Assembly (NCBI GenBank): GCA_036867785.1 | Contig: CP145418.1 | Coordinates: 1,287,725 to 1,307,724, forward strand | From: Plasmodiophora brassicae | Lineage: Eukaryota | Length of the DNA stretch: 20,000 bases | Reading direction: 5' to 3' | Shown: positions 1 to 20,000 of the stretch, one piece after another | How positions within the stretch are numbered: position 1 is the stretch's first letter | How the letters are laid out: every line of letters starts with the position of its first letter | The notes under the pieces: model-generated | The model's database searches: none | Told to the model about the DNA's origin: nothing | Seen by the model: the letters and a program-made list of their open reading frames with translations, nothing else | Translations under genes and position numbers: made by a program

Positions 1-286
1 CGGGGCCATCATCACAACATAATGTACGTGCGAAATGGATGGGAGACCGAACTCACTGGATACCTTCTACCTTCAGCAATGGGACGAATTGTCGCCAACT
101 TCGAAGCCGTGCCCATGTCACGTGAGAAGGTGCCCCGACGATGATAATAACGTATTGCGCCTACTGTAGCGTTCTGCGACAGGGATAAGTCAACCGTCCC
201 GTGTGCTCTAGGGCAGACGCGCGCAGTAACGGGAACTGGCTCGATGTTTATACGGCGTCATGCCTGATGCTGTACCTGAAAGCAAG

Positions 287-2740: not shown

Positions 2741-3939
2741 CGTCACTGCCCCACTGTGCGTCCTCCACCACCAGTGATTTCGTACACTGGCCGATGCCTT
2801 GGCCGGGATAGCACTGGAGTCGTTCCGACAACCATAAATTGGGCTTGAATGCAGGCTGGTGGCACTGGCGCAGTGTTTCATATCATCCCGACCCGAGGCG
2901 CGATATTCAGGCACCGGTGGTCCGGACGAGTGAGTGCCAGAGCAGCGACCTGTTCACAGCGAAGTCAGTACAGTGATCCCTTCCCAGAAACGCTGCATCC
3001 GACGAACGTTGCCCTTTCGTTTGCCTGCTCCAAGGGTCTGGATGCGGGCAGGCGCGTGCCGGCTGTTGCGCGTCCAAGACCAGCCATCATGGTGACGGCA
3101 GCGATCTCCATCGGCAGCGTGGGCGTCGACGACCCCGCCGTCGTCAGCCCGGTTGCATCGGCGCTTGCGAACGGCGGCCACCTACGCGGCAACCATGTCG
3201 TCAACCATGGCCCGGATTCTAGGCGACGTGCACGTTGTCGCAACAGCCCTCTTTGTTGGTTGGGTGTACGTTGAACGCGTTGACTATCGGTCATCTTGGT
3301 GAATGAAATTTATTTCCGCAGTCCGTACGGTGTAGCGGGTTGTGCCGCAGTTTCCTGCAAACCAACAGCTCTCCCACCAGAGAATCCTACTGCGCCACGT
3401 CACGCTTCCGGCCGTCGTCGAGCGTGTCGCACATAACCCACACTCCTCCTCGACAGCCGACGACGCCGATCTTCGTCCGGTGCGACTCGTGCTTGTCGCG
3501 CGGGATTGGCTTCGTCATCATTAGTATAGAGGGCAACCCTTGCGCTAGGGCCAAGGGTTGAGCCAAATTTAGCGCAGGATGGCCGTGGCAGAGGCCGCGC
3601 ACCTGTGTCCAGGCCACCGCTCCGGCGACGAGCGGCCCAAGGACAGGTCCCCTGCCGTCTCAGGTTGCAAGTCGTGTCGCCCAGAATCGCACCACACAAC
3701 ATTCCTTGCCTCACTCTGTGTCGATCCCGTTCGAATACACGATAGAGCGCTTGAGTTGTTGTCTTTGCGCGGGGGTGAATTGTGGATTACGCGTCGTCAA
3801 TACATGGCACGAGGGCGACAGATGAGTAGGGCCGTCTGACAGCTGACAACGCATGACGCAAGAAGAAATCGGCCCAAAAAAATCGCATTTATTGACCCAG
3901 TTTTTTGGGACGTTAAGCCCCTTTGCCGAGCAACGTTGC

Positions 3940-6900
3940 CGCTTTAGCTTTCGCCCACGCCGGTGGCGGCAGTATGGGACCTGTGGACGACATCGCGCCT
4001 CCGGCCGACGGATGCCGTGTCGGCGTGAATCAGTCGCCGACTCCGTGTTGCGCTGCGACTGACGACGCTGACGATGCAGCCGATCGCCCACGTCCCCTGC
4101 CAATCGCCGACGATCCGACGACCAAGCCGGTGGTCGACGCCGCCCACTACATCGCCGTACACGGCTTCCCGATACGCCACGATGTTCACCATCGCACCTC
4201 GCCGATCGCCGACGACCTGTCGCGACCGCGTGCCCTGCCAGTGTCTGCGCCGTAAGCCGTTGCACCTCGAGGACAGGTACGAGTCATCGTTTGTTGCACA
4301 GTGTCCCAGGCCCTCTGACGCGTTCGACACCGCCCTTATGCAGTCTCATGCCGTCGAGTCGGACCAGGTCCAACATGACCCCGGCGTGGTGGCTTCCGAC
4401 GCTTGGAACAATTGGTCATGCACGCCCCATGCCCGGCACCATGCGTTGATAGCGGGCTAACCAGTCGATGTCGTCGCCGGCCTCCCTGTCTGCGTGTCGA
4501 GCGGTGCCTGCCTGCTGCGTTGTGTTCGTCCTCGCGTCTCTCGAGTCGTCGACGTCCCGAGGCGCCTGCTCGCTGTTCCTGCGATCGACTGTGACGTAAT
4601 CGATGCATCCCACTGGACGTATGCCAACGCGCCCAACACGTCTGGACGACGCCATGCTCCGGTACGGACCGCTGTCTAATGCAAATGATCACGGCCTCAC
4701 ACGTTCTGCACAGGACACTGCCGTCGCCAGTTACGACGCTGCCGGTCGTCAATGCCGCCCACTACATCGCGATATTCGACTAAGTTCGCGTCTGCAGGCT
4801 GCGGGTCCCCAACGACCCGTCGTGCTGCTCGCCGTGCTTACGTCCGCGTCGAAGTCACCGCCGAGCACCGACATGGGCCAACGGGATCACCTGCAACGCG
4901 ACCATAAGGGGGCCTGCTGGGCTTCTGTGCATCTCCTGGTCAGGAGCGTGTCGTTGCCAAGATGCCCCATCGCCTGATACGGCTGCCTGCCCTGCTTGCG
5001 TCCGCGCCGACGTCGTTGCGACCGGGCCAACACATCGTCTACTAGGACAGCGGAACGTGATCATCTTCCTTAAGCGCGCCCAATATCTCTGGGTGCGGTT
5101 CCAGGACAGGTATAGTTTCTCGGCTGATGCGATATGACCTTCGCCTCTGACATGTGATGAACAGGCTAAGCCAGCTGCCGTGGGACGTCGCTTGTCCATC
5201 ATGGGAGCCTTCAAGCAGCCGTGGTTCTGCCAAATTGTCATTCTGCTCCACACGTGACGCGGTCGACTGCCCCACCCTAGCCGCCGGATGCAATTCGCCG
5301 TCTGCCCTGAACCGTCCTGCGAGGCCGGGCCCCGCATGCAAGTGCGTCGCCGCCTCCCCCATCTGCCTGGTCCGCTGCGTCTGCCAACTCTGCTGGTTGC
5401 CCAGCAGGGTAGCGGTGCCCAGCGCCCGTTGCTGCCGGAAGCCTCGCGGACACCTGACTTCCGACGACGATCGTCCAGCATCCCTGACGCTATATCCCGA
5501 TAACCGTGAACGTTGAATACATGCTGCACCTGTTGACATGCGCGTACACCCACATGTGAAGTGCTTCCTGGCGTCAACTGGCGCGTCCGGCAGAGTCCGC
5601 TGCAGTCGTTGTAGGGCAGGGTGCCCGTCGCCGAACGAGAGCGGCGACGCTGCGTGCGCCTGCGTGACGAGCATGGCCGATCAGTCCAATGCAACGCGCA
5701 CGCACGACAGTTGGATGCGCCCAGTCAACGCGCATCGTGGCGCCCACTTCTGCACACACGTGCCTAGATGCGCCCACGGGCCGAGTCGAACGTCTCAGAT
5801 GAATCGACATGCCACGACGACGTCCCGCTGCCAGATTACGTACTGCAATGGATGCCAGCGGCATTGACTGTCGACCTCTGTCGTGGAGTGCCCTGGATTG
5901 TCACCATTGTTGACAGAGAGACCAGCACAGTGCAATGTCCCCGCCCCCGTTGTCAGACGTTGCCCTTTCAAGGACGTGACGTAATGTGATCGGAGGGTAC
6001 TTACTCGACATTAAACGAGGCGAGATCGTACGTACTGATCGAGTTCCGTGTCGGTACATGGTTTTCCAATGGACGCTGGCCTCGGCGAAAGTCCAGCAGG
6101 GCGCCCCACTCCGTACTAGCTGCGTGGTCGTCGACGACCCGGCTACGCTGCCAACGTCGTCCACTACATCGCCGTACACGGTTCAACGGGTGTTCTTCGC
6201 CGTCGCACATCGCGGGTCCCCGTCGACATGCCGTGCCTTCCCGTCCTGCTTGCGTCCCCGCCGACATCTCCGCCGACCCGATCGGCAAGGGCCAAGGCGT
6301 CCCCTACGAAGGCAACGCATCCTGCTGCCGCACAGTATCTCTGGATCTACTATATCCAGAACAGGTAAGTCGTATCGTGTATGACAGGCGGCCATGGGCT
6401 CAGACATGTGATGAACAGGAGACTGCATCCGTATGGCGGGCGTTGCCAGCGTTGCGGCCACCTGCTCCACACCTGGGGCTATCGCATGTCGCGAATCCCC
6501 GACGACACGTCCACGCCGACGTCGCCGCCGACCATATCGGCACGTGTAAAACGCATCCCCGGGGAAGGCAATGCAACCTGCTGCTGGTGTGTCAACGCGC
6601 TCAGTACCTCTGGATGAAGTATATCCAGAACAGGTACGCCGTAGCGCGTATGACCAGCGACCATGACCTCTGACATGTGATGGACAGGAGACGGCAGCCG
6701 TAGCTGTACCGCATCGTCAGGCTTGCGACCACCTGGTCCCACGCCTGAGGCGACGCCTACCCCCTGTCGATCGCTGCGGTTGGTCGTTCGCGTCCCTGCC
6801 ATAAACCCGTCATTCCATGTCGGCCACAGCGAGCAAGGGCGCCGCCAGCGCCACCGTCCGCAAGCCCAGCTGCGCATGCCTACGCTGCTGGTTGCCCAAC

Positions 6901-7260
6901 GTCCATTTCTACCGGCCGCCACGCGAACGCCTGCTATCTTTGATGACGATCGCCACCATCCCGGCCGGCGTATCGCGGCAACCAGGACCGTTCAATACAG
7001 GCAGAACCAGTTGTCACGCGTGTACACCGGCCATGCATGGCTTCCTGGCGTCAGCTGGTGCCGACCAGAGCAGGGCGGGACGCCGTCCGTCCCCAGCGTG
7101 TTCATCGACGTTGCGCCCGTCCCTTCATGTCGACGCATATGAAACCCATCCCATGACGTTGCCATGCCTGGTTAGGCCAAGCAATGCCTACCCTTACAAT
7201 CGACCATCGACGCTCTCGATGCTGCACCTCAAACAGACCCGTCCCGTGTGTTAAGTTACA
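3940..7260 (+). pseudogene. Decayed tandem array of intron-containing Cys/His-rich coding modules (unknown family)
   Basis: Recurrent diverged motifs: (A)DDPTT-LPVVxAAHYIAVHG at ~4108, ~4725 and ~6130; QYLWxxxxQxR at ~5075, ~6335 and ~6597; CxxC-type words CPAC, CQRC, CVCQLCW and CACLRCW. A homologous 54-55 nt GT-AG intron lies at 5110-5164, 6365-6418 and 6634-6687; the copy at 4277-4330 has its AG changed to AC. Stops and frameshifts interrupt the copies. Confidence 0.6.
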
Positions 7261-7269
7261 AATACAAGT

Positions 7270-8151
7270 TTATGAACGGATACCATTGCATCTGTAGAAG
7301 AGCAGCCTGTAGACGCGCTTGTGGAGCAGGCTAGCCACTTGGGACTCTCCATACCGCACTAGGCGATTGGTGTCGCAGAAGACCCAGGAACCACCGGGTT
7401 GCTTGACCCAGGATATATAATGCCCTTCATCGTGCCCAGCCAATTGGGTGTCACTACCCTGGTAATCGACCAGGCCAACGAGATCGAAGTACACGCTCTG
7501 CCAGTCTGAAACGTCACTTCTGGCACCACGTCCTGCCCACAGGAGATATCAGACATCCAAGAGATCCACCCATCATCATCGCTTGATGTCCTGCACCTAC
7601 CACCGTGGTCCTACGACGCGCCATGCTGATCTGCGCTCCGTCAGGGCCGGGTTGCTGGACGATCTCCATCGGATCCTGCCGAACAATCAACAGTGACCCC
7701 GGCGTTGGACTCCTGGCCATGTGGCGGAACGTTGTCGACCGGTGCTCGACATCGTGACCAGGTTGGCAGGGAACGTTGGAGGTGCACCTCCTGGTGATCG
7801 TCTCCGACTGCTCCCCGACCAGAACCGTTGAGAGTTTGACTCGCCGGTGGCAGCCCTGCAGCATGACGACGGGCTGCTGACAAGGCGGGCGCGACGAGGC
7901 ATGGCCGCAGGTGGCACACGTATCAACCACGTGTTCGACGAACTCGACGAGACTGCCAACAATCGGCTGTCCATCAGCGCCGACCATACATACGCCTCCA
8001 TCTGCGATAGCAGTTCCAGGACGAAGTCGTCTGCGTCGTGCTGTTGTCCGGCAGGAAACGACCGTGTCGCCCGGTCGGCGTTGCCCAGGCTGCTGATGAG
8101 CTCAACGAGCGCGTACGACGCCACGTTCGCATCCAGGCGGGGGTTCATCAC
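7270..8151 (-). pseudogene. USP / peptidase C19 deubiquitinase pseudogene, paralog of 10389-11432
   Basis: Four ORF fragments concatenate to a homolog of the 10389-11432 domain. Shared motifs: GQQHDADDF, CATCG, YFDLVGLVDY..GHDEGHYISWVK..WVFCDT and KRVYRLLFYR. The first 53 aa are 38/53 identical. Frameshifts lie at ~7988, ~7557 and ~7493. Homology stops at ~8152, so the Cys box is absent. Confidence 0.88.
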
Positions 8152-8204
8152 CTGGTTGAGTTGACGGTGTGAACACGGTGTCCGATACCTTTAGGGAATG
8201 ATTT

Positions 8205-8224
8205 GGGGGGGGGGGGGGGGGGGG
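8205..8224 (+). repeat. G20 homopolymer
   Basis: Twenty consecutive G, about 50 bp from the truncation point of the USP pseudogene. Confidence 0.95.
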
Positions 8225-8589
8225 TCCAAAATGGACCAGGCAAACTCCGCTTCGGAACCAGTGGGAGAATCGAAATCGTGCAGGATCACGTTCGCGAGTG
8301 GCCCCTGTATATGTACACTGTCTGGCAAACTCGGACGTCAGCCAGACAATTCGGGCCGTGTGCGGCCGGCGAACGTCGGCATAACAGAGAATGTCGGATT
8401 CTATTCTGCTGATGTGTATCGAGCGTGCCGCAGACCGCGTCCAGTTCTGTTGCAGGGCACGACATCGGTCGGGTTACTGTCGCTTGTGTTTATGGTGTGT
8501 ATGCGGATGGATGGCGATATACGTCTGTGTTCGATGCTATCCCCAGGACAAGTACGATGGGCGTAGACACACCCATCGATTGAAGGTGG

Positions 8590-10200
8590 GCCTTGCCAGT
8601 CAACGTCAAGGCAGCCGCCGACTCCGTGGCGGGCGTCGTCGGGGCGACTGACGACCCGACGACGTCAACACTGCCGGCCGATGACCCTGTGTATTCGACA
8701 TCCCTTGTCGTCGACGCCCTGTCGCGCCTCCCTGCCCTGCCTCCGTCCGCGCCGACGTCGCCCCCCGACATCCAACTGCACGGGCCAATTGATTCCCTAC
8801 GATCGCAACACGTCATGCAGGGCGTCTACTGACACGCCTGCCGTCGTCAGGCCAGAATCAGCACCTGCAGCAAGCAGTCGTCCTGCCGATGAACCTGCTC
8901 TTCTGCGACGTGTTGGCCCATTAACCTGTTGTTTCTGCTGACATCCGGCCTGGTATCCTGACAAATCCTGCCGAAATCAGTGTCACCGTTGATGGTAAAG
9001 GATGATATGACAGGTGTATCCCTTGTCTTGGTTACGCAAAAAACTCCTGAGACCTCCCAAAAACAGCCGCGTTGTTTTTTGCTGGCGGCCCCGGTGGCGT
9101 GCGGCGGTGCGGCGTGCGGTCGCCTGGGCGGATGCGCTATACACCATGGAGCGTGCGCCGTCCTCCGACGCCTCCTACACGAGGTCGCGATGCGCATGCC
9201 CGTTGGAGGGCGGTATACGGCACAGACGTGGAGTCCTCTCAACGTGAAGCAGGCGCCGACTCCATGGTGGGCGTCGCCCGCGACTGACTACTCGACGACG
9301 CTGCCGGTCGCCAACGCCGCCTACTGCATCGTCGTCCACGCCCGCCGGATATGCTGTTGTGTTCAGCCTCGCACGTCGCAGGACGCCGACACCCTGACGC
9401 GCCTGTCTGCCGTGCCTGCACCCGCTGCGACGTCGCCGCAGATGGGCAGCACGGCCCAATGGACTCACGACGACCATATCGCGTCCTGCTGGACGCCTGC
9501 CGGCGTGCCCGATCTGTCTGTGTGAACGCCCTGCAGTTGCAGCACTGGTACGTGTCGTCGTCTGATGCACAGGCGTGCAGGCCCTCTAACACGCTGGACA
9601 GGACGCACCTGCTGGCTGTCGCCTGCCGTCGTCCGTCCAGCATGAGCACCTGCCGGGTAGCTGTCATCGTGTCTTGGCGGGGCTGGTCCAGCATCGCGCC
9701 GGCATGCTCCTCAGCTGAGGCGGCGCGCTGGACGTTCGCCGATCGTTGCAATCGGTCGCGCGCGCCGCTGTCGTGCACCATGCGTTGATGGCGGACCGAG
9801 CAACCAAAGGTCTTCTCGCCGATGTCCCCGTCGGCCTGTCGAGCGGCACCTGCCTGCCCTGCAGGTCTTCCAGCAGGCAGGTGGCGCCCAGTGTCCGTTG
9901 CCGTTGATCGACATGCGCACGCCTATCTGCCGTCGACCACCCGCCGCCGGCGTATCGCCTCACCCAGATCACTACAAGCAGATTAGGTCGACACGCGCGA
10001 ACGCCGGCCCTGCAGGTCGTCCTGGCGTCAGGCGGCGCCGGACGGCATCCTTTGCTGAAGTGGCCGGCGGTCGACAGCGCCGACGTCGTCCCTGCATGCG
10101 TGTCAAGCATGGCAGGTCAGACCAGACGAGCGATGCAGGCGTTTCGGGTGTCGCAGCATGCACGTGAGGCAGGTGATTGCGCTCGACTCCAAGCAAACGC
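8590..10200 (+). pseudogene. Further decayed copies of the Cys/His-rich module
   Basis: The anchor gccgactcc occurs at ~8616 and ~9255, as at ~4035. ATDDPTTSTLP lies at ~8644 and ATDYSTTLPVANAAYCIVVHA at ~9280. The homologous 54-nt intron is at 9548-9601 (gtacgt...ctaac...acag). accatgcgttgat.gcgg is shared by ~9778 and ~4438, and gtcgagcgg..cctgcctgc by ~9838 and ~4496. Confidence 0.6.
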
Positions 10201-10388
10201 GGTTCAGTACGTGTCAGAGCGGTCCTACTTCATTATCCCTGAGTTGTACTGCAGCGTGCGGCCTGGCAAGAAGGCGTGAGGTACAACTTCTCAACAACGC
10301 AAACGAATACAACGTCTTTTACGGATCATATGTTCCACCATTCTTTCTACTGCATGGCCAGGCAGATGAACTCGACGATGGACAAGCT

Positions 10389-11432
10389 TTATTGCCTTCG
10401 CAGTGCGAAGCACCTGTAGAACAGGAGTCGGTAGACCCGCTTGCTGAGCAAGTCGGCGACGTGCGCGTCGGAATACCCTTGCACGCGACTGGTGTCGCAG
10501 AACGCCCAGCCACCACGTGCCTGCTTCACCCAGGACACGTAATGGCCTTCGTCGTGTCCAGCGACGTGGGCATTACCCCAGTGGTCGACAAGGCCGACCA
10601 ACTGGAAATACGCATCTCCAACTTGGAAGACCGCCTGTGGCACCACATCCTGCTCAAAGAAGAAATCAGATATGCCCAGGTTTCCATCCATCATCGTTGT
10701 CGGGCCGGCACGTACCACCGCTGTCTTGCGCCGCGCCATACTGATGGTCTGACCATCGAGACCTGGCTCCTGGACGATTTCGATGGGATCCTGCCGCACC
10801 AGCATCACTTGGCCTTCCTCGACCTTGCCCTTCAACTGACGAACCGTCGTGCTTCGGTGCTCCACGTCCTGCCCGCGATTGCACGGCCGTTCAGCAGTGC
10901 ACCTCCTGGCGATCGTCGTAGTGTGCTCTAGGAGTAACGCGTCGGCGAGGGACGTTCGGCCGTGCGAACCACCCAGCATAACAACCGGGAGCTCGCAGGG
11001 CGGACGCCTAGTGACATGGCCGCAGGTCTTGCACGCGTCGACGACATGCTCGACAAAGCCAATGATCGCTCTTTCGATCGGATGACCTAGGGCCCCGACA
11101 ACCTCGTACGCCTGCATCTGCTGCAGCAGCTCCAGCGCGAAGTCGTCGGCATCGTGCTGTTGCCCGGGATCGAACGACCTCGTCGCCCGGTCAGCGTCGC
11201 TGATGGCCTTGATGAGGTCAACCAGGATGTCGGACGCCGCGTTCAGATCCAGACGAGGGTTCATGACCTTATTGTACAGGTCAATCCAGGGCGCGGGGCC
11301 GGAGACACGTTCCCAGCCCGGCAATGACCGCAAGATCTGCACCGGTGCAATCGCGTAGCAAATAGATCGGCAAACGCCTGCCGCATCATTGTTCGATATG
11401 CCCGCTGGCAGTAACGACCCAGCGTCACGCTC
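10389..11432 (-). CDS. Terminal exon encoding a ubiquitin-specific protease (USP/UCH, peptidase C19) domain
   Basis: The frame is open from the tttag acceptor at 11433. Cys box: PAGISNNDAAGVCRSICYAIAPVQILRSLP, with the catalytic Cys codon at 11360-11358, upstream of the ORF-track start. Also present: QQHDADDF box, CKTC...C-x-C zinc ligands, His box YFQLVGLVDHWG..GHYVSWVK..WAFCDTSRV, and terminal YRLLFYR. Confidence 0.9.
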   Translation of the reverse strand, partial: ERDAGSLLPAGISNNDAAGVCRSICYAIAPVQILRSLPGWERVSGPAPWIDLYNKVMNPRLDLNAASDILVDLIKAISDADRATRSFDPGQQHDADDFALELLQQMQAYEVVGALGHPIERAIIGFVEHVVDACKTCGHVTRRPPCELPVVMLGGSHGRTSLADALLLEHTTTIARRCTAERPCNRGQDVEHRSTTVRQLKGKVEEGQVMLVRQDPIEIVQEPGLDGQTISMARRKTAVVRAGPTTMMDGNLGISDFFFEQDVVPQAVFQVGDAYFQLVGLVDHWGNAHVAGHDEGHYVSWVKQARGGWAFCDTSRVQGYSDAHVADLLSKRVYRLLFYRCFALRRQ

Positions 11433-14400
11433 CTAAATGTCAATTTCAGCGCCGACTATGACAATTATGCAGTATACCACACCTGTGAAGGACTTTGTTC
11501 TTCTTTCACCGGTTCGCGGTTGACGCCTTGGGCGGGCCGGCTCGCACGTCCGCCAGGTGTACGTTCGGGTGCCTATGGTCAATGCGAGCGTGTTAGATGT
11601 TATCTTCGCCTGAGTACCGGCGATGTCAGTTTCGAACCAGTTTTGGCGCTGTGAAACGGCGGTTCGCATGTCCAGTCTGTGCCTACAGCAGGCGGACGGT
11701 CAGTAACGCAGTCGAGGCGGGGTACAAGGAATGCCAACCGAAGCAGGCGGCATGGTGCGCGTGTTAGGAGGGTCCTTGATCACAGTCGTCGACGTAACCG
11801 GCAGAGGCCTCTGCAACGTTCCGCCAGTTCAGTCTACATCCCGCTGGCATCACAATATAGCAACTGACCACAGGGCGTGTCGTCGTGCCACACAACTTTC
11901 GGCGCTTCGCACCCTGATGGCTTCGTTTCTTCTGTGGCACACATCCATCGTCAGTCTGCAAACGGCGTCCAACGCTGTCAACCTGGCTTTCGCGCGACGT
12001 CGACTGGCACAGCTCGCTGGTGTCCCTTGACGAGTCATCGCTGTCGTCTTCCGAGCTGGACATCGAGAGGGCGTCTGCAGCGGCCTGTTGGGAACGCAGT
12101 CAGTACAGTAATCCGTGATCAGCAAAGCAGCCAGCGACGAACGATTCGCCTGCGTTTGACTGCTGCGCGGCTCTGCAGGGTAACGGCGCGTCGACTGCTC
12201 CTCGTTCGACGCGTAGGTCCATCGCCGTCGGCAGCAGCGTCGTCGTCAACGGCCTCGTCAGCCTGGTCGGCTCGGTTCCCCCGGCGCTGGCGAATGGCGG
12301 CGACGTACGCGCCCACCATATCGTCGACGATGCCGCGAAACCTCGACGACGTCGCCTCTGCCATCGGCCTTGGTCGTGAGTCCAGGATCACCAGCTCGAA
12401 GGCGTTGACGAAATAGGCATGTGCGTGCCTCGAGCTCAGGCCGATCTCGACGAGCGTGCGCCCCACAGCGCCGATCAGCGCGAGAGCGTGCTTGTAGGGG
12501 CGCCAATCGATGCGTGCAGCGCCGAACATCTCCAGTAAGTCGTCGACGACGAGGACATGCTCAGCGGGGTCACGAACGGCGTCGTTTCGACCGGCGCCGA
12601 CATACGTCAGCACGCCGGGGCCCAGCGCGCGTGCGTGATACACGAGAATCAGGATTTTTTCCGCCGTCGACCAAGTCGACAGGTCGACGGGAGACGGCCA
12701 CCTGTCCTTGACGCCCTTGACAGCGGCGTGCACCTGCGTCGACATTGTCCTGTGGCCCTTGGACAAATGCACGACCGCGTCGACGCCCGCTGCCTGGACT
12801 AGCAGGCCGTTGTGCGGGTCGGCCAGGAACGAGCCCCAGTCGATCTTGGTGCAGGCGCCCCGCGCGTCCGGCGACGAGTGCAGGACGCCCTGGATGAGGG
12901 CCAGCGCCTCCCATAGCCAGTGCCGCTTCTTGCTCCCCTGGTTTGCCGACGGGAGGGGTACGTCGCGCCAACTCTTGCACGCATCAAACAGCGTGACTGA
13001 CCGTGGTGCCAGCGGCAACGTGCTCAGAGTCATCGGGTCAGACGACGCTGGCAGACGCACCACAGCCGATCGATCATGCAATGGCGGGACAATCATGACG
13101 ACGTGCGCCAATACGGCCAGAAAACGCGACGACGGCGCCCAGCGTCCATCGGGGCGAGCACGCATCGCTCGACGCTGAGCGACGGTCTTGGTCGCAGACC
13201 CCATCAGATCGGACACATACTCATCGGTGATTTCGTCAGGAGGCGGGTCGACCAGGGCGACGAACGGATGGATGACGCGTCCCGACCAGCGGAGCAACAG
13301 CGTCACGTGGATGCCATCACGTCCCTGACGGTCCCTGGTTCTCTTGACGCGCTCCACCAACGCTTTCGTCACGTTGTAATCGTCGTATCGTGATTCGGGT
13401 ATGATGGACATCACGTCGCGCCACAGGGCCCGGTGTGGCAACCGTTCGACGCCCGGCGACATCCAATTCGTTGCGATCCAGTTGGAAAAACTAACGGTTG
13501 GCAGCGACGACAGCGACGGATCGAGCGTCGATCCACGCCTGCCCAGGCGGTACAGGGCGTCCAGCGACCGCATGAAACCCGCGAACAGGTAATCGTGCTC
13601 CTGGTCCAGGTCCGGTCGATCCAGAGCATGCCATACCCCGGGCGCCAAAATCTTCCTCTTCGCCAACTGATCGTACGTATACGCAGCTTCAGTCTGCAGA
13701 AGGTTCAGAGCAATGGCGTCCGGCGTCAGCATTGAGCTCAGCCCTGATGAGATGACCAGGAACCACGACTGGACCAGGTAGTGGAGCGCATGCCGGTTTC
13801 CTCTGACGGAGATCCGCAGGACTGTCGACATCATGTCGACGTAGTCGAGGCTCTGAATGAAATTCATAAACTCGCCCTTGTTGATGACCAGGGCAAGCGG
13901 ATCCATGTACGTGTCGTCGACGAAGAAGCGGCCAAACTGCAGAGACGAAGACACGTAGTCGAGAGGCGACCCGTTCGACAGCCACGGCCCGACATTGCTG
14001 TCCGGCGTGGCCCGGTGGTAGAACCGACCTGGGTTGATGGACGAGCCGTCAAAAACCGCATTGAAACAGTCTTCGAAGATCTGCAGCGCGTTCAGCGACC
14101 GCCGATCGATGTTGGACACGAAAGGAGACCGGCGACCGCGCTCCAGCCGGCGAAACATCGCGCGGTACATCTTGCGAGGGAACACGACATACTGCTCTAG
14201 TTTCCGCCGGAGATGTGCCCAGACGGCTTCCGCGTCCAGCAGCAGGAACGTGGCATCGTCGTTGAACCCATCGGCCTCCTGCCACATGCTGTTGAAGCAC
14301 GCATGGCGCATGGTCAGGTTAGCGACGTACTCAACGCGGTGCACGACAGGAACGCGTTCGGCGGCCATCTGGCGACAGAATCGGATACGCTTCCGCATCG

Positions 14401-16076
14401 CGTCCCTCACCGGATTCAACGCCCGCTTTACGTCTTCCTTCTTGACCGGGCCGTACTTCCTAAGCGCGGCGGGCAACCCAGCGATCGACTTCCGGACCTT
14501 GCCCTTCTCGAACGTAGCGCGGACGGCCGCGTTCAGGGTACCGATGTGGGCAAAGCGGACGGGGTCCACCAGAACGCGCCCACGATCCCGCGTGCGCTGC
14601 GACACGGTCGCGTTGTAGCACGAGCGCGCGGATGCCATAACGGAACTGCAACGTGACTTGCATCCACCGAACCCGGCGACCTCCCCGACCGGATAGTACG
14701 AGCTCTTGCGTGGCGCGATGCCACAGCCGACGTCCAGATCTCGCAGCGCTGAGTAGTCGCGGCAGACGGCAACGGCTGTGTTGTCGGGGAAGGGTTCGGC
14801 CGACACGTTGGACCCGATGTCGAAGCGCGCGCAGTCCATTAACGTTGACGGCCAGAACGTTCGCAAGTAGCGGCGCACCTCGAGAACGTCGGCGACACAC
14901 GTCATTTTCATCAACGAGCGCACACCTAGCGCTTGCATCAACACCATGATGGAGCCGTCAAGCTCATCCTCAAGAGCCTCCAGGACAGCGCGGGCGGACG
15001 AAGGTGGCATAACCACGGGGCGGCGGTGGGCCCCAAACTGGTTAAGGTAGTCGTTGATCTCGTCCGGCAGATCTGCTTGGCAGGCACTGAACGCAGCGGA
15101 AACCGCCCTGGAGCAGTGCTGCTTGAGGGAACGATGCGTCCAACGGGGTGCGGCAGCGATTAAGAAGATCGAGACATTTGCCATGGGATGGCAGGCAGTC
15201 AACCTGACCCAACAGGAATCGCGGCAACTGCGCCACTGACCGCGACGCCTTCTCGTCGTCTCGCTGCACACGCAGATCGTGTACCGAGCTTCCCGTATCC
15301 GACTGACGTGCACGGTAGTTCCCGTACCTCTGCATCATGTGCAGGAAGGCAAACGATTTGGCTTCGTGCACAGGAAAGTGCTGCAGCCAGGTCCCGATCG
15401 AAGTCGTGATTGCTTGCAAAGAGTCGACGTCAAACACCGGCCGCAATCGCGGGCGACCCCCGTGAGCGTCTGAGGCGCGACGCGCCTCATCCGCCAGATC
15501 GAAGCGGAACCGGCCGCAGAAGGCCTCTTTCCTGGGGGATCCGAAGACATCCCAGAAGCGTTCGCCGGCGAATTCGTCGAGGTGTATGACCTCAAACGTG
15601 GACAGATCCATTGCTGGTGCACTAGCACAGGGCGGCGTCGACTGGCGGACGAGGTGGTCTACGGAGGGGTCGATGCGTTCGTCATCGCTTCCGTCGACAT
15701 TGCTGGGGTCAGGGACGTCGCCGTCATCCATCGAATACGAAGAGTCAGAATCAGTTTCGACGTCGTCCCCGATTGCGTCGCCTGGGTCAGGGTCATCGCA
15801 CTCGGAGTCTCCCACCGGATCCTCGCAATCATCACCGACTTCGTCACGCTCAGCGGCTTCGTGTGCATCCCTGATACGCTCCAGGTATTCTATTGTGCGG
15901 TCGTCCTCGTCCCCGTGTTCGACTGGATCTTTGTGCCCGGTGCACTCCTGCTTAGGCTGGCCATGTCCGTCGCAGACCATTATCATCGGGGCCGGCGCCC
16001 TTTCACAACTGACACGTACCGCTGACGACGGCAGTACTTCGAGCCAGAGCATCGGCGAGCTGTTCCGCAGGTGCAT
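10389..16076 (-). CDS. Large spliced gene (~1,750 aa): acidic N-terminus, >1,000-aa unidentified region, low-complexity linker, C-terminal USP (C19) domain
   Basis: Proposed exons: 16076-16020, 15956-15328, 15263-12143, 12084-11869, 11810-11739, 11682-11638, 11572-11483 and 11432-10389. The five 3' introns (58, 58, 56, 65 and 50 nt) are all GT-AG and phase 0, and give a stop-free frame. Two of them carry TACTGAC branch motifs. The start codon and the two 5' introns (16019-15957 and 15327-15264) are less certain. Confidence 0.72.
11433..12142 (-). other. Cluster of five spliceosomal introns: 12142-12085, 11868-11811, 11738-11683, 11637-11573, 11482-11433
   Basis: Donors are gttcgt, gtcagt, gttggc, gttcga and gtgtgg. 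Acceptors are aacag, tgcag, tgtag, catag and tttag. The intervening exons are 216, 72, 45 and 90 nt, all multiples of 3 and stop-free. Confidence 0.75.
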
Positions 16077-17272
16077 CAGGGGTAGCGCTATTGTAGACAG
16101 TACCGCCAAAGCTGCCACTCGTTTGACCGGCAACGAGTCGTCGCCCCTTCCTAACCGCTACATTACAAGGGGTTGTTTGCGAGTTTGGGCCACCGTCAGC
16201 TGAGCACAACGGTACCGTTGGAAATAGCAGGAAAAATCAGAGGCAGCTGGGCTGTTTTATTTGGCATATGTGCCACCGATCTTCTCCTATCGCCGAGAAT
16301 GTAGTGCCGCTTGGGCAGATTTGCTGATTTCACTAAGTCAGAACTGAACTCCGTGGGAGTGCGCAAAATGCCGCGTGTGGACTGTTTTGGCACTGCTTGC
16401 GAATCATGGATGGCATCGCCTGGCGTCTCGTTCTCTAGCAAACCTGCGCCCTGATGATCAACCATGGCTAGACCGCCCGCTTCACCCCTTCCTCATTTCC
16501 AGTCAGGGTCTGGGCACGATGCGACGGCGCCGGCAGCACTTCGTTTAGCCGGCGTGCCTCATGGCGAAGGTCCCTGACAGGTGTCCCGCGTTTCCGTTTG
16601 TACAACCTCCACGTCTGGCGTGCGTGCGGGCGTCGTCATGCATTGCGTCGGTTTACGACGCTGTCCTTATTTACCCGCTCGGCATTCGGCGTCCAGGTGT
16701 TCATGTCATCCGTGCCCAGTGACCCGCCTGCTCTGCTGATGATTAGGCCCTGAACCTGCACAACCGCACCCACCCGATCGGCCTCGTTTCCTAAGATGTA
16801 CCTTCTTATGGCCGTGCCGGTTACCATACACTGTTACCCAGGCGACGCTGATTCAGCTTGTCCAGGCATGCGTGCTGTTCATCCTGTGATTTCTATGTTG
16901 CCTTTGCATCGTCAGTGCCCTCTGATCGCACTGGAGTTCCCGTGCAGCGACACAACGTTTGGGAGTTGGAGTCGACTAATCAGATTGCGACATTTCTGAA
17001 ACATGCATTGCTCGCAATAGGGGACAACGAATAGGAATGTCGAGCCAGGCCTGGACGGGAAAGTTCAGAAGCGATCCGGTGAGCATGGCTGCATTGGCGT
17101 TCGCGTAGTACATGGACATATCGCCAGTGGCACGTCGCGCACATCATCGCATGCGCAGGCACCCACGAGTGAGGTCAGAGCAGAAAATCGACGTGCTCAG
17201 AATGCCGACGAATACCCCAACTCGATAACGCAGATCGTATCGCTACGTTTCGCGCTGGCCGGTGTAGGGGGC

Positions 17273-17311
17273 CTGAGACGGGATCGGTCAGTGAAGAACG
17301 ATGAAACGTAC
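17273..17311 (-). other. Candidate 39-nt intron
   Basis: gtacgt...cactgac...ctcag has a canonical donor, branch motif and acceptor. It is very short and its host gene is not resolved. Confidence 0.4.
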
Positions 17312-17435
17312 CAGGTCACTCAACCGGGTAACTGTGCGGCGCGATATCTACCGAGAACGGCTCTTTTGACAATGTTCAGTTGGGGGCTGGATCTGATAGC
17401 ATATCGCCTGGCCTATCAGTTCGTATGGTTGCGTA

Positions 17436-19765
17436 TCGATTCGAGACGCGGCTGTTGACAGTTGGTCGGCGGCGGTGACGGCGTCCGCTGAGAACTGCTG
17501 TGCATCTGCGTGCTGTTCGCCTTCGGGAAATTCCATATTGCTCTGAAACCAGGAGCATCGGACAGCAATTTCCAACGCCCTTTCAGTACGTGTGCCGGTT
17601 GCCTGTCGATTCGAGACGCGGCTGTTGACAGTTGGTCGGCGGCGGTGACGGCGTCCGCTGAGAACTGCTGTGCATCTGCGTGCTGTTCGCCTTCGGAAAA
17701 TTCCATATTGCTCTGAAACCAGGAGCATCGGACAGCATTTCCAACGCCCTTTCAGTACGTGTGCCGGTTGCCTGTCGATTCGAGACGCGGCTGTTGACAG
17801 TTGGTCGGCGGCGGTGACGGCGTCCGCTGAGAACTGCTGTGCATCTGCGTGCTGTTCGCCTTCGGGAAATTCCATATTGCACTGAAACCAGGAGCATCGG
17901 ACAGCATTTCCAACGCCCTTTCAGTACGTGTGCCGGTTGCCTGTCGATTCGAGACGCGGCTGTTGACAGTTGGTCGGCGGCGGTGACGGCGTCCGCTGAG
18001 AACTGCTGTGCATCTGCGTGCTGTTCGCCTTCGGGAAATTCCATATTGCTCTGAAACCAGGAGCATCGGACAGCATTTCCAACGCCCTTTCAGTACGTGT
18101 GCCGGTTGCCTGTCGATTCGAGACGCGGCTGTTGACAGTTGGTCGGCGGCGGTGACGGCGTCCGCTGAGAACTGCTGTGCATCTGCGTGCTGTTCGCCTT
18201 CGGGAAATTCCATATTGCTCTGAAACCAGGTGCACCTGATAGCATTTCTCCTGACCTTTCAGTACGTGTGCCGGTTGCCTGTCGATTCGAGACGCGGCTG
18301 TTGACAGTTGGTCGGCGGCGGTGACGGCGTCCGCTGAGAACTGCTGTGCATCTGCGTGCTGTTCGCCTTCGGGAAATTCCATATTGCTCTGAAACCAGGT
18401 GCACCTGATAGCATTTCTCCTGACCTTTCCGTACGTGTGCCGGTTGCCTGTCGATTCGAGACGCGGCTGTTGACAGTGTTGGTCGGCGGCGGTGACGGCG
18501 TCCGCTGAGAACTGCTGTGCATCTGCGTGCTGTTCGCCTTCGGGAAATTCCATATTGCTCTGAAACCAGGAGCATCGGACAGCATTTCCAACGCCCTTTC
18601 AGTACGTGTGCCGGTCGCCTGTCGATTCGAGACGCGGCTGTTGACAGTTGGTCGGCGGCGGTGACGGCGTCCGCTGAGAACTGCTGTGCATCTGCGTGCT
18701 GTTCGCCTTCGGGAAATTCCATATTGCTCTGAAACCAGGAGCATCGGACAGCATTTCCAACGCCCTTTCAGTACGTGTGCCGGTCGCCTGTCGATTCGAG
18801 ACGCGGCTGTTGACAGTTGGTCGGCGGCGGTGACGGCGTCCGCTGAGAACTGCTGTGCATCTGCGTGCTGTTCGCCTTCGGGAAATTCCATATTGCTCTG
18901 AAACCAGGAGCATCGGACAGCATTTCCAACGCCCTTTCAGTACGTGTGCCGGTTGACTGTCGATTCGAGACGCGGCTGTTGACAGTTGGTCGGCGGCGGT
19001 GACGGCGTCCGCTGAGAACTGCTGTGCATCTGCGTGCTGTTCGCCTTCGGGAAATTCCATATTGCTCTGAAACCAGGAGCATCGGACAGCATTTCCAACG
19101 CCCTTTCAGTACGTGTGCCGGTTGCCTGTCGATTCGAGACGCGGCTGTTGACAGTTGGTCGGCGGCGGTGACGGCGTCCGCTGAGAACTGCTGTGCATCT
19201 GCGTGCTGTTCGCCTTCGGGAAATTCCATATTGCTCTGAAACCAGGAGCATCGGACAGCATTTCCAACGCCCTTTCAGTACGTGTGCCGGTCGCCTGTCG
19301 ATTCGAGACGCGGCTGTTGACAGTTGGTCGGCGGCGGTGACGGCGTCCGCTGAGAACTGCTGTGCATCTGCGTGCTGTTCGCCTTCGGGAAATTCCATAT
19401 TGCTCTGAAACCAGGAGCATCGGACAGCATTTCCAACGCCCTTTCAGTACGTGTGCCGGTTGACTGTCGATTCGAGACGCGGCTGTTGACAGTTGGTCGG
19501 CGGCGGTGACGGCGTCCGCTGAGAACTGCTGTGCATCTGCGTGCTGTTCGCCTTCGGGAAATTCCATATTGCTCTGAAACCAGGAGCATCGGACAGCATT
19601 TCCAACGCCCTTTCAGTACGTGTGCCGGTTGCCTGTCGATTCGAGACGCGGCTGTTGACAGTTGGTCGGCGGCGGTGACGGCGTCCGCTGAGAACTGCTG
19701 TGCATCTGCGTGCTGTTCGCCTTCGGGAAATTCCATATTGCTCTGAAACCAGGAGCATCGGACAG
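17436..19765. repeat. Subtelomeric 169-bp tandem satellite, 13 full units plus one 130-bp partial unit
   Basis: Unit starts (tcgattcgag) are at 17436, 17606, 17775, 17944, 18113, 18282, 18451, 18622, 18791, 18960, 19129, 19298, 19467 and 19636. Units are near-identical. A degenerate extension runs back to ~17392. Confidence 0.98.
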
Positions 19766-20000
19766 GGCTTAGGGTTTTTTTAGGGTTTTTAGGGTTTTAG
19801 GGTTTTAGGGTTTTTTAGGGTTTTAGGGCTTAGGGTTTTTATTAGGGCTTAGGGTTTTAGGGTTTTAGGGTTTTAGGGTTTTTAGGGTTTTTAGGGTTTT
19901 AGGGTTTTAGGGTTTTAGGGTTTTAGGGTTTTAGGGTTTTAGGGTTTTAGGGTTTTAGGGTTTTAGGGTTTTAGGGTTTTAGGGTTTAGGGTTTTTAGGG
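19764..20000 (+). repeat. Telomere, (TTTTAGGG)n with proximal variant repeats
   Basis: A G-rich strand runs to the end of the window. It is mostly T4AG3, with CTTAGGG and T5-T7 variants concentrated near the junction. Confidence 0.98.

What the first reader, a model, noticed from the sequence alone, without database searches (positions are those of the whole stretch)
10389..16076. Hidden ~1,750-aa fusion: large unidentified region spliced in frame to a divergent USP deubiquitinase
Seen: the 1064-aa ORF, several small ORFs and the 317-aa USP ORF look separate in the track. Five consecutive phase-0 GT-AG introns of 50-65 nt join them with no stop, and this recovers the Cys box that the track missed. 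Known: housekeeping USPs carry UBL, DUSP, ZnF-UBP or MATH domains, and none is evident here. Several large eukaryotic DNA elements carry cysteine-protease domains (Ulp1/C48 in some Mutator and Zisupton elements, OTU in some Helitrons). Inference: with a second, broken copy 2 kb away and a subtelomeric position, this may be the main gene of an undescribed mobile or selfish element that carries a C19 protease. A lineage-specific deubiquitinase family is the alternative.
Basis: partly seen in the sequence, partly recalled or inferred. Interest (0 to 1): 0.85.

Follow-up and report, generated by a model that had tools for sequence, protein, structure and literature searches.

The report
Giant subtelomeric deubiquitinase fusion gene
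A gene next to a chromosome end, probably of the clubroot parasite, is spliced so that a large protein region of unknown function is joined to a ubiquitin-removing protease domain, and it belongs to a small family of diverged copies with no sign so far of being a jumping gene.

Summary
The core observation holds. Contigs from three public runs, which skip canonical minus-strand introns and so behave as RNA, splice the 1064-aa ORF to the USP ORF through five phase-0 GT-AG introns of 58, 58, 56, 65 and 50 nt. One contig runs from 14278 to 10373. A sixth 66-nt intron lies inside the USP ORF.

The roughly 1,750-aa frame is not intact in the window. A 4-nt tandem duplication at 15190-15197, absent from all three runs, splits it. 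The RNA contigs also leave the window at an acceptor at 16158.

The C-terminal domain matches Pfam UCH above the curated cutoff, with His box and Asp aligned to solved USPs. The Cys box is only weakly placed.

The N-terminal region, about 1,300 aa, has no known domain. A search of 1.84 billion representative proteins gave 9 hits: a 990-aa metagenome protein at 26-28% identity, two Plasmodiophora brassicae fragments, and six diverged fragments.

P. brassicae e3 carries a parallel pair of USP paralogues, annotated as stand-alone genes. Telomere repeats and a 169-bp satellite confirm the subtelomeric position.

I found no transposase domain and no terminal repeats. The best reading is a lineage-specific, subtelomere-associated multigene family encoding a giant USP-type protein. 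The mobile-element idea is unsupported, but could not be tested properly without the genome.

The parts
15198..16157 (-). N-terminal coding part in frame 2 (320 codons, acidic near its start). It begins at a splice acceptor (AG at 16159-16158). Candidate start codons are at 16076, 16052, 15986 and 15980.
   Evidence: The frame is open. RNA contigs cover 14825-16157 without a joint and leave the window at 16157.
15190..15197 (-). 4-nt tandem duplication (TGCC TGCC on the minus strand) that shifts the frame in the window.
   Evidence: '15190 left out 4' in X1, X4 and X11, in every contig that covers the site. Sequence context.
12143..15187 (-). Main exon in frame 0, 1015 codons: an orphan region, mostly helical in a poor model.
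   Evidence: ORF. Homologous to P0002 at 5e-47. No Pfam, NCBIfam or PDB match.
12085..12142 (-). Intron 1, 58 nt, phase 0, with a TACTGAC branch-like motif. It contains the stop (12121-12119) that ends the unspliced ORF.
   Evidence: Joint in 3 of 3 runs. Sequence.
11869..12084 (-). Exon 2 (216 nt): Ser/Asp-rich acidic stretch followed by a basic KKRSHQGAKRRK motif.
11811..11868 (-). Intron 2, 58 nt, phase 0.
   Evidence: Joint in 3 of 3 runs.
11739..11810 (-). Exon 3 (72 nt).
11683..11738 (-). Intron 3, 56 nt, phase 0.
   Evidence: Joint in 3 of 3 runs.
11638..11682 (-). Exon 4 (45 nt).
11573..11637 (-). Intron 4, 65 nt, phase 0.
   Evidence: Joint in 3 of 3 runs.
11483..11572 (-). Exon 5 (90 nt).
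11433..11482 (-). Intron 5, 50 nt, phase 0.
   Evidence: Joint in 3 of 3 runs.
10716..11432 (-). USP exon A: Cys box (putative catalytic Cys codon 11360-11358) and the CxxC...Cx5C finger cysteines.
10650..10715 (-). Intron 6, 66 nt (GTACGT...GCAG), in frame, inside the 317-aa ORF.
   Evidence: Joint in 3 of 3 runs. The e3 paralogues lack these 22 residues.
10389..10649 (-). USP exon B: His box (His codon 10583-10581, GHY), Asp codon 10496-10494, stop at 10391-10389.
   Evidence: Pfam UCH, profile positions 198-253. Alignments to Ubp8 and USP14.
7276..8159 (-). Second USP copy. In the window it is cut off at 8159, before its Cys box, and has two small indels relative to RNA. It has an intron at 7600-7533. 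Tyr stands where copy 1 has the His-box His.
   Evidence: tblastn. Joints, indels and loose ends. Alignments. Sequence.
17427..20000 (.). 169-bp satellite (13.8 copies, 17427-19765) followed by TTTTAGGG telomere repeats (19778-20000).

Best explanation
This is one gene, not several. Its mature mRNA joins three parts in one frame:
- an N-terminal region of about 1,300 aa with no known domain;
- a linker of about 140 aa, acidic and Ser-rich, then basic and NLS-like;
- a divergent USP (MEROPS C19) domain at the C-terminus.

The full protein is about 1,750-1,780 aa, more if exons upstream of 16157 are coding.

The likely mechanism is inferred, not shown. The C-terminal Cys-His-Asp domain would remove ubiquitin or a ubiquitin-like modifier from targets. 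The orphan N-terminal region would select or scaffold those targets, probably in the nucleus.

The gene belongs to a lineage-specific multigene family that sits in duplicated blocks near chromosome ends. The organism is probably Plasmodiophora brassicae, or something very close to it.

The copy in this window is interrupted by a 4-nt duplication and lacks the upstream exon seen in RNA. In this assembly it is either a damaged copy or carries assembly errors.
For: Shown:
- Six minus-strand GT-AG joints appear in 3 of 3 covered runs. X1 record 3 (3553 nt) is continuous from 14278 to 10373. X1 coverage is even (10-24) from 16157 to 10373.
- All junctions are phase 0 and the frame stays open to 10389.
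- Pfam UCH scores 30.9 bits against a cutoff of 23.9, and 34.1 bits for paralogue P0010.
- The His box and Asp align to Ubp8 and USP14.
- dN/dS is 0.24 over 258 codons between the two USP copies in the window.
- The N-terminal region is a real conserved protein: BLASTP 5e-47 over 725 aa to the metagenome protein P0002, plus 8 further hits.
- The family recurs. PBRA_009553 is 71% identical to copy 1, PBRA_009550 is 77-89% identical to copy 2, and PBRA_009347 is 74% identical to copy 1.
- A relic of the big ORF's tail together with intron 1 lies at 3238-2942, at 73% identity over 99 nt.
- The telomere motif TTTTAGGG is the one reported for P. brassicae (passages read in PMC6823432 and PMC11191646).

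Inferred: deubiquitinase activity, nuclear location (KRRRI and KKRSHQGAKRRK motifs), and a targeting role for the N-terminal region.
Against: - The window's own frame is broken at 15190-15197, and the RNA contigs diverge from the window at 16157.
- The transcripts may come from another strain, or from a near-identical copy elsewhere in the genome.
- In X4 and X11, depth falls about 100-fold from the 3' end to the 5' end. Shorter transcripts that encode only the USP part cannot be excluded. Contigs cannot show transcript starts.
- Public e3 models annotate the USP paralogues as separate proteins of 413-454 aa.
- The Pfam alignment never covers the Cys box (profile positions 70-79 onward).
- By eye, about 5 extra residues separate the GISNN motif from the Cys. 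Its placement on the USP14 Cys box scores negative on its own.
- Both structure predictions failed, with pLDDT 42 and 33, so no fold evidence exists.
- Copy 2 and PBRA_009550 carry Tyr at the His-box His. Part of the family may therefore be catalytically dead.
Confidence: 0.6

Rival explanations
1. Two functional units share one transcript region. The USP protein is translated on its own from the Met in exon 2 (MSSSEDD...), as annotated for the e3 paralogues. The big ORF is a separate product or an upstream ORF, and the long spliced RNA is read-through.
For: - The e3 models PBRA_009553 and PBRA_009550 start at that Met.
- There is a steep 3'-to-5' depth gradient in X4 and X11.
Against: - The only stop that ends the big ORF lies inside intron 1, which is spliced out in 3 of 3 runs.
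- Five consecutive junctions keep phase 0 and an open frame.
- X1 shows one contig from 14278 to 10373 at even depth.
- The big-ORF tail and intron 1 stay adjacent in a third, relic locus.
Confidence: 0.17
2. This is the main gene of an undescribed mobile or selfish element that lives at chromosome ends and carries a C19 protease, analogous to the Ulp1 or OTU domains carried by some DNA transposons.
For: - The family is multi-copy, with frameshifted, decayed-looking fragments such as P0001 and P0006.
- The position is subtelomeric.
- Spliced antisense transcripts overlap the big ORF.
- A relic fragment lies at 3238-2942.
- The orphan protein could hide an unrecognised enzyme.
Against: - No transposase, integrase, RT, helicase or recombinase family matched at E<=0.1.
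- The only inverted repeat found is a 25-nt, 84% pair that does not flank the gene.
- Relatives are 26-87% identical, not near-identical.
- The USP-X-USP block is duplicated as a block.
- The USP domain is under purifying selection across old paralogues.
- Scans of viral and metagenome contigs found nothing.
Confidence: 0.12
3. In this particular genome the locus is a decaying subtelomeric relic: frameshifted, with its 5' exon lost. The intact, expressed gene lies elsewhere or only in other isolates.
For: - The 4-nt duplication at 15190-15197 is absent from 3 of 3 runs.
- The contigs' 5' continuation is absent from the whole window.
- Copy 2 is cut off at 8159, next to a 20-nt poly-C tract, while RNA continues in frame.
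Against: - Three small indels and two breakpoints against RNA could equally be assembly errors.
- Everywhere else the RNA contigs match the window almost perfectly. X1 shows 0-3 other letters per piece.
Confidence: 0.3

Closest known systems
USP/UBP deubiquitinases (MEROPS C19, Pfam PF00443). The nearest solved structures by profile are human USP14 and yeast Ubp8.
   Same: - Pfam UCH match above the curated cutoff.
- His box with GHY and the following Asp align.
- CxxC...Cx5C cysteines sit where the zinc finger subdomain would be (the role is recalled).
- Cys, then Tyr, with Gln at +7, in the order of the USP14 Cys box.
   Different: - The Cys box is not recognised by the profile, and by eye it carries about 5 extra residues before the Cys.
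- No UBL, DUSP, ZnF-UBP or MATH domains are present.
- The domain is fused behind an orphan region of about 1,300 aa.
- E-values to solved USPs are only about 0.01.
Plasmodiophora brassicae e3 'USP domain-containing' hypothetical proteins PBRA_009553, PBRA_009550 and PBRA_009347.
   Same: - They are 71%, 59% and 74% identical to copy 1. PBRA_009550 is 77-89% identical to copy 2.
- They share the linker motifs, and the same intron is removed inside the USP domain.
   Different: - They are annotated as stand-alone proteins of 210-454 aa that start in exon 2.
- None is the window's own gene.
- No public protein covers the big ORF at 50% identity or more over more than about 135 residues.
Cysteine-protease domains carried by eukaryotic DNA transposons: Ulp1/C48 in some Mutator and Zisupton elements, OTU in some Helitrons.
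   Same: A large protein with a papain-like protease domain for the ubiquitin or ubiquitin-like system, in a multi-copy setting.
   Different: - Those elements have recognisable transposase or Rep-helicase domains and defined ends. None was found here.
- The protease class here is C19.
- One full-text search for a USP domain in transposons returned nothing relevant. That search was weak.
Subtelomeric multigene families such as yeast Y' and fungal telomere-linked helicase genes (recalled).
   Same: Large ORFs in duplicated blocks next to telomeres, with truncated and frameshifted copies.
   Different: There are no helicase motifs or domains. The conserved enzymatic part is a USP.

Membership tests
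USP/UBP (C19, PF00443) | Profile match above the curated threshold | tested here: met
   30.9 bits against 23.9, E 2.7e-7, profile positions 76-253 of 254. Paralogue P0010 scores 34.1 bits.
USP/UBP (C19, PF00443) | Cys box with the catalytic Cys near the N-terminus of the domain | tested here: inconclusive
   The Pfam alignment does not cover it. The family profile places sICYAIAPVQILRALPG on USP14 nTCYMNATVQCIRSVPE, but with a negative score. The motif is conserved in P0010 and P0011.
USP/UBP (C19, PF00443) | His box (catalytic His, GHY) and the Asp/Asn that follows | tested here: met
   LVGLVDHWG...GHYVSW...FCDTS aligns to Ubp8 and USP14. Copy 2 and PBRA_009550 have Tyr at the His position.
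USP/UBP (C19, PF00443) | USP fold (palm, thumb, fingers) | tested here: inconclusive
   The AlphaFold2 model reached pLDDT 33 from a 7-row alignment, which is unusable.
USP/UBP (C19, PF00443) | Hydrolysis of ubiquitin conjugates | not testable with these tools
   Needs Ub-AMC or Ub-probe assays.
Eukaryotic mobile element (DNA transposon, Helitron or retroelement) | A transposase, integrase, RT or Rep-helicase domain | tested here: not met
   No Pfam or NCBIfam family matched at E<=0.1 on the big ORF, the N-terminal part or P0002. A very divergent enzyme cannot be excluded.
Eukaryotic mobile element (DNA transposon, Helitron or retroelement) | Terminal repeats flanking the unit | tested here: not met
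   The repeat finder on 1-17400 gave one inverted pair (25 nt, 84%, at 5460 and 7649) that does not flank the gene.
Eukaryotic mobile element (DNA transposon, Helitron or retroelement) | Many near-identical copies with shared sharp ends, target-site duplications and insertion polymorphism | not testable with these tools
   No genome is held. The known relatives are 26-87% identical.

The most novel reading that the evidence does not exclude
The orphan 1,300-aa region fused to a USP could be the signature protein of a previously unseen kind of selfish element in Rhizaria that lives at chromosome ends. The element would spread by subtelomeric recombination or by an unrecognised enzyme hidden in the orphan region. 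The USP domain would process the element's own protein, or protect it from host ubiquitin-dependent silencing or degradation. The spliced antisense RNAs would be the host's or the element's control layer.
Probability: 0.1. Interest if true: 0.8.

Novelty: new variant of a known kind. Interest (0 to 1): 0.45.

Why it matters
- A whole class of giant USP-type genes appears to be mis-annotated in the clubroot pathogen, as small stand-alone USP genes plus unannotated or fragmentary ORFs.
- The N-terminal region defines a protein family with no Pfam model. Only one distant relative outside the P. brassicae-related data turned up among 1.84 billion representative proteins.
- The family sits in duplicated, rearranging blocks beside telomeres. 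Such regions often hold fast-evolving genes in parasites.
- Knowing whether the family is a deubiquitinase system, a set of pseudo-enzymes (the copy-2 lineage lacks the His) or a selfish element would bear on genome plasticity in Rhizaria, a poorly studied supergroup.

Tried and rejected
- Whole genome: none is held, so copy number and flanks could not be tested.
- Word-index protein searches: nothing for the big ORF. For P0002 the search returned only P0002 itself.
- ESM Atlas on the big ORF: no usable hit.
- Pfam and NCBIfam on the big ORF, the N-terminal part, P0002, P0008 and P0009: nothing.
- PDB profile search with alignment A1: 0 hits at E<=10.
- AlphaFold2 on the big ORF (10-row alignment): pLDDT 42. 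On the USP ORF (7 rows): pLDDT 33. Both are unusable, so no fold search was run.
- Metagenome contig scans with P0002 and A2: no relative found. Viral contig scans gave the same result. The DNA around P0002 could therefore not be examined for a USP.
- The look-up of sequencing runs: no RNA holder listed; the holders are only guessed to be RNA.
- Raw-read RNA run X24: 0 reads laid from about 1% of the run. This is no test.
- My first intron set, read by eye, was wrong. It included 11982-11932 and 11617-11573 and gave stops. It was corrected by the RNA joints.
- A candidate intron at 15327-15264 linking the two frames: no RNA contig skips that interval, and the frames are bridged by the 4-nt difference instead.
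- BLASTP of the frame-2 N-terminal part against P0002: not significant.
- BLASTP of the 875-aa ORF against the big ORF: no similarity.
- No internal repeats in the big ORF.
- Rfam on the window: nothing.
- Papers: no full text names PBRA_009553, 009550, 009347 or 009557.
- Passages found in PMC6823432, PMC11191646, 10.64898/2026.10.14.759018 and PMC13547706 do not mention this family. The term 'ubiquitin' had 0 occurrences in the first three; in PMC13547706 only repeat and telomere terms were searched.
- The listings show no paper on a P. brassicae USP. Supplements were closed and may hold gene lists that include these loci.
Full report
**Setting**

The window is GC-rich (0.53-0.66). It ends in 27 TTTTAGGG repeats (19778-20000), preceded by 13.8 copies of a 169-bp satellite (17427-19765).

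TTTTAGGG is the telomere repeat reported for Plasmodiophora brassicae (passages read in PMC6823432, and PMC11191646). The closest named proteins are P. brassicae hypothetical proteins. I therefore take the organism to be P. brassicae or something very close. This is an inference. No whole genome is held.

**The observation**

Three open stretches lie on the minus strand:
- frame 2, 16157-15045;
- frame 0, 15334-12122 (the track's 1064-aa ORF);
- 11432-10392 (the USP ORF).

An exhaustive search showed that stop-free GT..AG paths across the linker are easy to find. 78 of the first 201 enumerated paths end in the USP frame.

The decisive evidence is RNA. I found 20 public runs holding half or more of the locus's sampled words and laid four of them. 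X24 gave 0 reads and is no test. X1, X4 and X11 come from three studies. They are labelled only 'RNA?', but their contigs skip canonical introns with a consistent strand, so they are cDNA-derived.

All three runs show joints at:
- 12142-12085 (58 nt)
- 11868-11811 (58 nt)
- 11738-11683 (56 nt)
- 11637-11573 (65 nt)
- 11482-11433 (50 nt)
- 10715-10650 (66 nt)

The exons between them are 216, 72, 45 and 90 nt, all junctions are phase 0, and the frame stays open to the stop at 10391-10389.

X1 record 3 (3553 nt) runs from 14278 to 10373 across all six introns. Its length arithmetic shows that a tempting 51-nt GT..AG at 11982-11932 is not removed. The sixth intron sits inside the 317-aa ORF. The e3 paralogues lack exactly the 22 residues it would encode.

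- In the window the ~1,750-aa frame is broken. Frames 2 and 0 overlap between 15334 and 15045. They join only because all contigs of all three runs lack 4 nt at 15190, where the window has a tandem TGCC TGCC.
- With XXX at that break, the model is 1747-1777 aa from the ATGs at 15986 or 16076.
- The contigs leave the window at 16157, just after an AG. They continue for 767 nt (X1) to 1634 nt (X4) of sequence that is nowhere in the window. An upstream exon is therefore missing here, or the RNA comes from a near-identical locus.
- A minor 52-nt intron (14330-14279) appears in X1 only, at depth 5. It would give a stop 27 codons later.

**The USP domain**

Profile and alignment evidence:
- Pfam UCH matches at 30.9 bits against a cutoff of 23.9. 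Paralogue P0010 scores 34.1 bits, and P0011 scores 23.6, just under the cutoff.
- The His box (LVGLVDHWG...GHYVSW) and the following Asp (FCDTS) align to yeast Ubp8 and human USP14.
- The Cys box is not covered by the Pfam alignment.
- A family profile places sICYAIAPVQIL on the USP14 Cys box, but with a negative score.
- By eye, about five extra residues separate GISNN from the Cys. That motif is conserved in the e3 paralogues.

Selection and structure:
- dN/dS between the two USP copies in the window is 0.24 over 258 codons, with dS near saturation. The domain has been under purifying selection.
- Copy 2 and PBRA_009550 carry Tyr at the His-box His. That lineage may be a pseudo-enzyme.
- AlphaFold2 failed on the USP ORF (pLDDT 33), so there is no fold evidence.

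**The N-terminal region**

No Pfam, NCBIfam, PDB-profile or Atlas match was found. There are no internal repeats and no hydrophobic segment. The N-terminus is acidic, and the linker holds NLS-like KRRRI and KKRSHQGAKRRK motifs.

An exhaustive phmmer search of 1.84 billion representatives gave 9 hits:
- P0002, a 990-aa 'hypothetical protein' from a metagenome: 26% identity over 725 aa, BLASTP 5e-47.
- Two P. brassicae fragments, PBRA_009557 and SPQ97032.1, at 26-30% identity.
- Six short fragments from run assemblies at 58-87% identity. By tblastn, one matches the window in three different frames and another loses its match partway.

This is a real, old, diverged family with decayed members. 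AlphaFold2 gave pLDDT 42. The model is mostly helical but unusable.

**Family and neighbourhood**

- The second USP copy (8159-7276) is transcribed and spliced at 7600-7533.
- In the window it ends at 8159, beside a 20-nt poly-C tract, whereas RNA continues in frame. It also differs from RNA by two small indels.
- PBRA_009553 matches copy 1 at 71% and PBRA_009550 matches copy 2 at 77-89%. The two-USP block therefore exists at least twice, which looks like segmental duplication.
- A relic of the big ORF's tail plus intron 1 lies at 3238-2942.
- Public models start the USP genes at a Met in exon 2, so the fusion is indeed hidden in annotation.

**Interpretation**

Best reading (confidence 0.6): one gene encoding a giant USP-type protein, a member of a lineage-specific, subtelomere-associated family.

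Rivals:
- USP translated alone (0.17). The depth gradient in X4 and X11 and the e3 models favour it. The intronic position of the only stop and five phase-0 junctions argue against it.
- Mobile or selfish element (0.12). No transposition enzyme and no terminal repeats were found, and the copies are diverged. Copy number and flanks remain untested.
- This particular copy may be a damaged relic, or the assembly may carry errors (0.3). This is not exclusive of the other readings.

**Novelty**

This is a new variant of a known kind: a USP domain behind a novel orphan region, in a subtelomeric family. No paper in the searched library names the e3 paralogues. Supplements were closed and could list them.

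Noticed in passing
window 12958-13012 and 13185-13239, + strand: Two 55-nt GT..AG joints on the strand opposite to the big ORF, at high depth in X4 and X11 (544-1172). The first joint was seen in X11 only, the second in both runs. This points to a spliced antisense transcript over about 12450-13780. No long ORF survives the splicing.
   Followed up: partly
window 8600-10170, + strand: A very highly covered region in X4 and X11 (depth up to 11634) with a 54-nt + strand intron at 9548-9601. There is no Pfam, Rfam or convincing ORF match. Related modules recur at about 4100-5470 and 6100-7063, so each USP copy is followed by such a region.
   Followed up: partly
window 2942-3238 and 287-2914, minus strand: A degenerate copy of the big ORF's last ~75 codons (with an in-frame stop) plus intron 1 lies directly upstream of an 875-aa ORF. 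That ORF has no Pfam hit. Its language-model neighbours are ankyrin-repeat proteins (score 0.95, 139 shared features), which is only a weak lead.
   Followed up: partly
window 8140-8240: Homology of USP copy 2 stops at 8159. Just upstream lie one CCCTAAA unit and a 20-nt poly-C run (8205-8224). RNA contigs continue with coding sequence that is absent from the window. This is either a rearrangement breakpoint or a misassembly.
   Followed up: partly
window 7491, 7989-7990, 15190: Three small indels relative to the RNA contigs, each seen in all three covered runs: 2 nt extra, 1 nt missing and 4 nt extra in the window. They are either true lesions in this isolate or assembly errors.
   Followed up: no
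window 7460-7470 (copy 2) and P0011: Copy 2 and PBRA_009550 read VDYQG where copy 1 and PBRA_009553 read VDHWG/VDHQG. The presumed catalytic His is replaced by Tyr in one paralogue lineage.
   Followed up: partly
window 17427-20000: A 169-bp satellite (13.8 copies, 98% matches) lies directly against the TTTTAGGG telomere. The satellite generates a ladder of spurious 153-210-aa ORFs.
   Followed up: no
window 14279-14330, minus strand: A minor 52-nt intron (GTACGT...CTAAC...GCAG) is spliced in X1 at depth 5. It would shift the frame and stop 27 codons later.
   Followed up: yes
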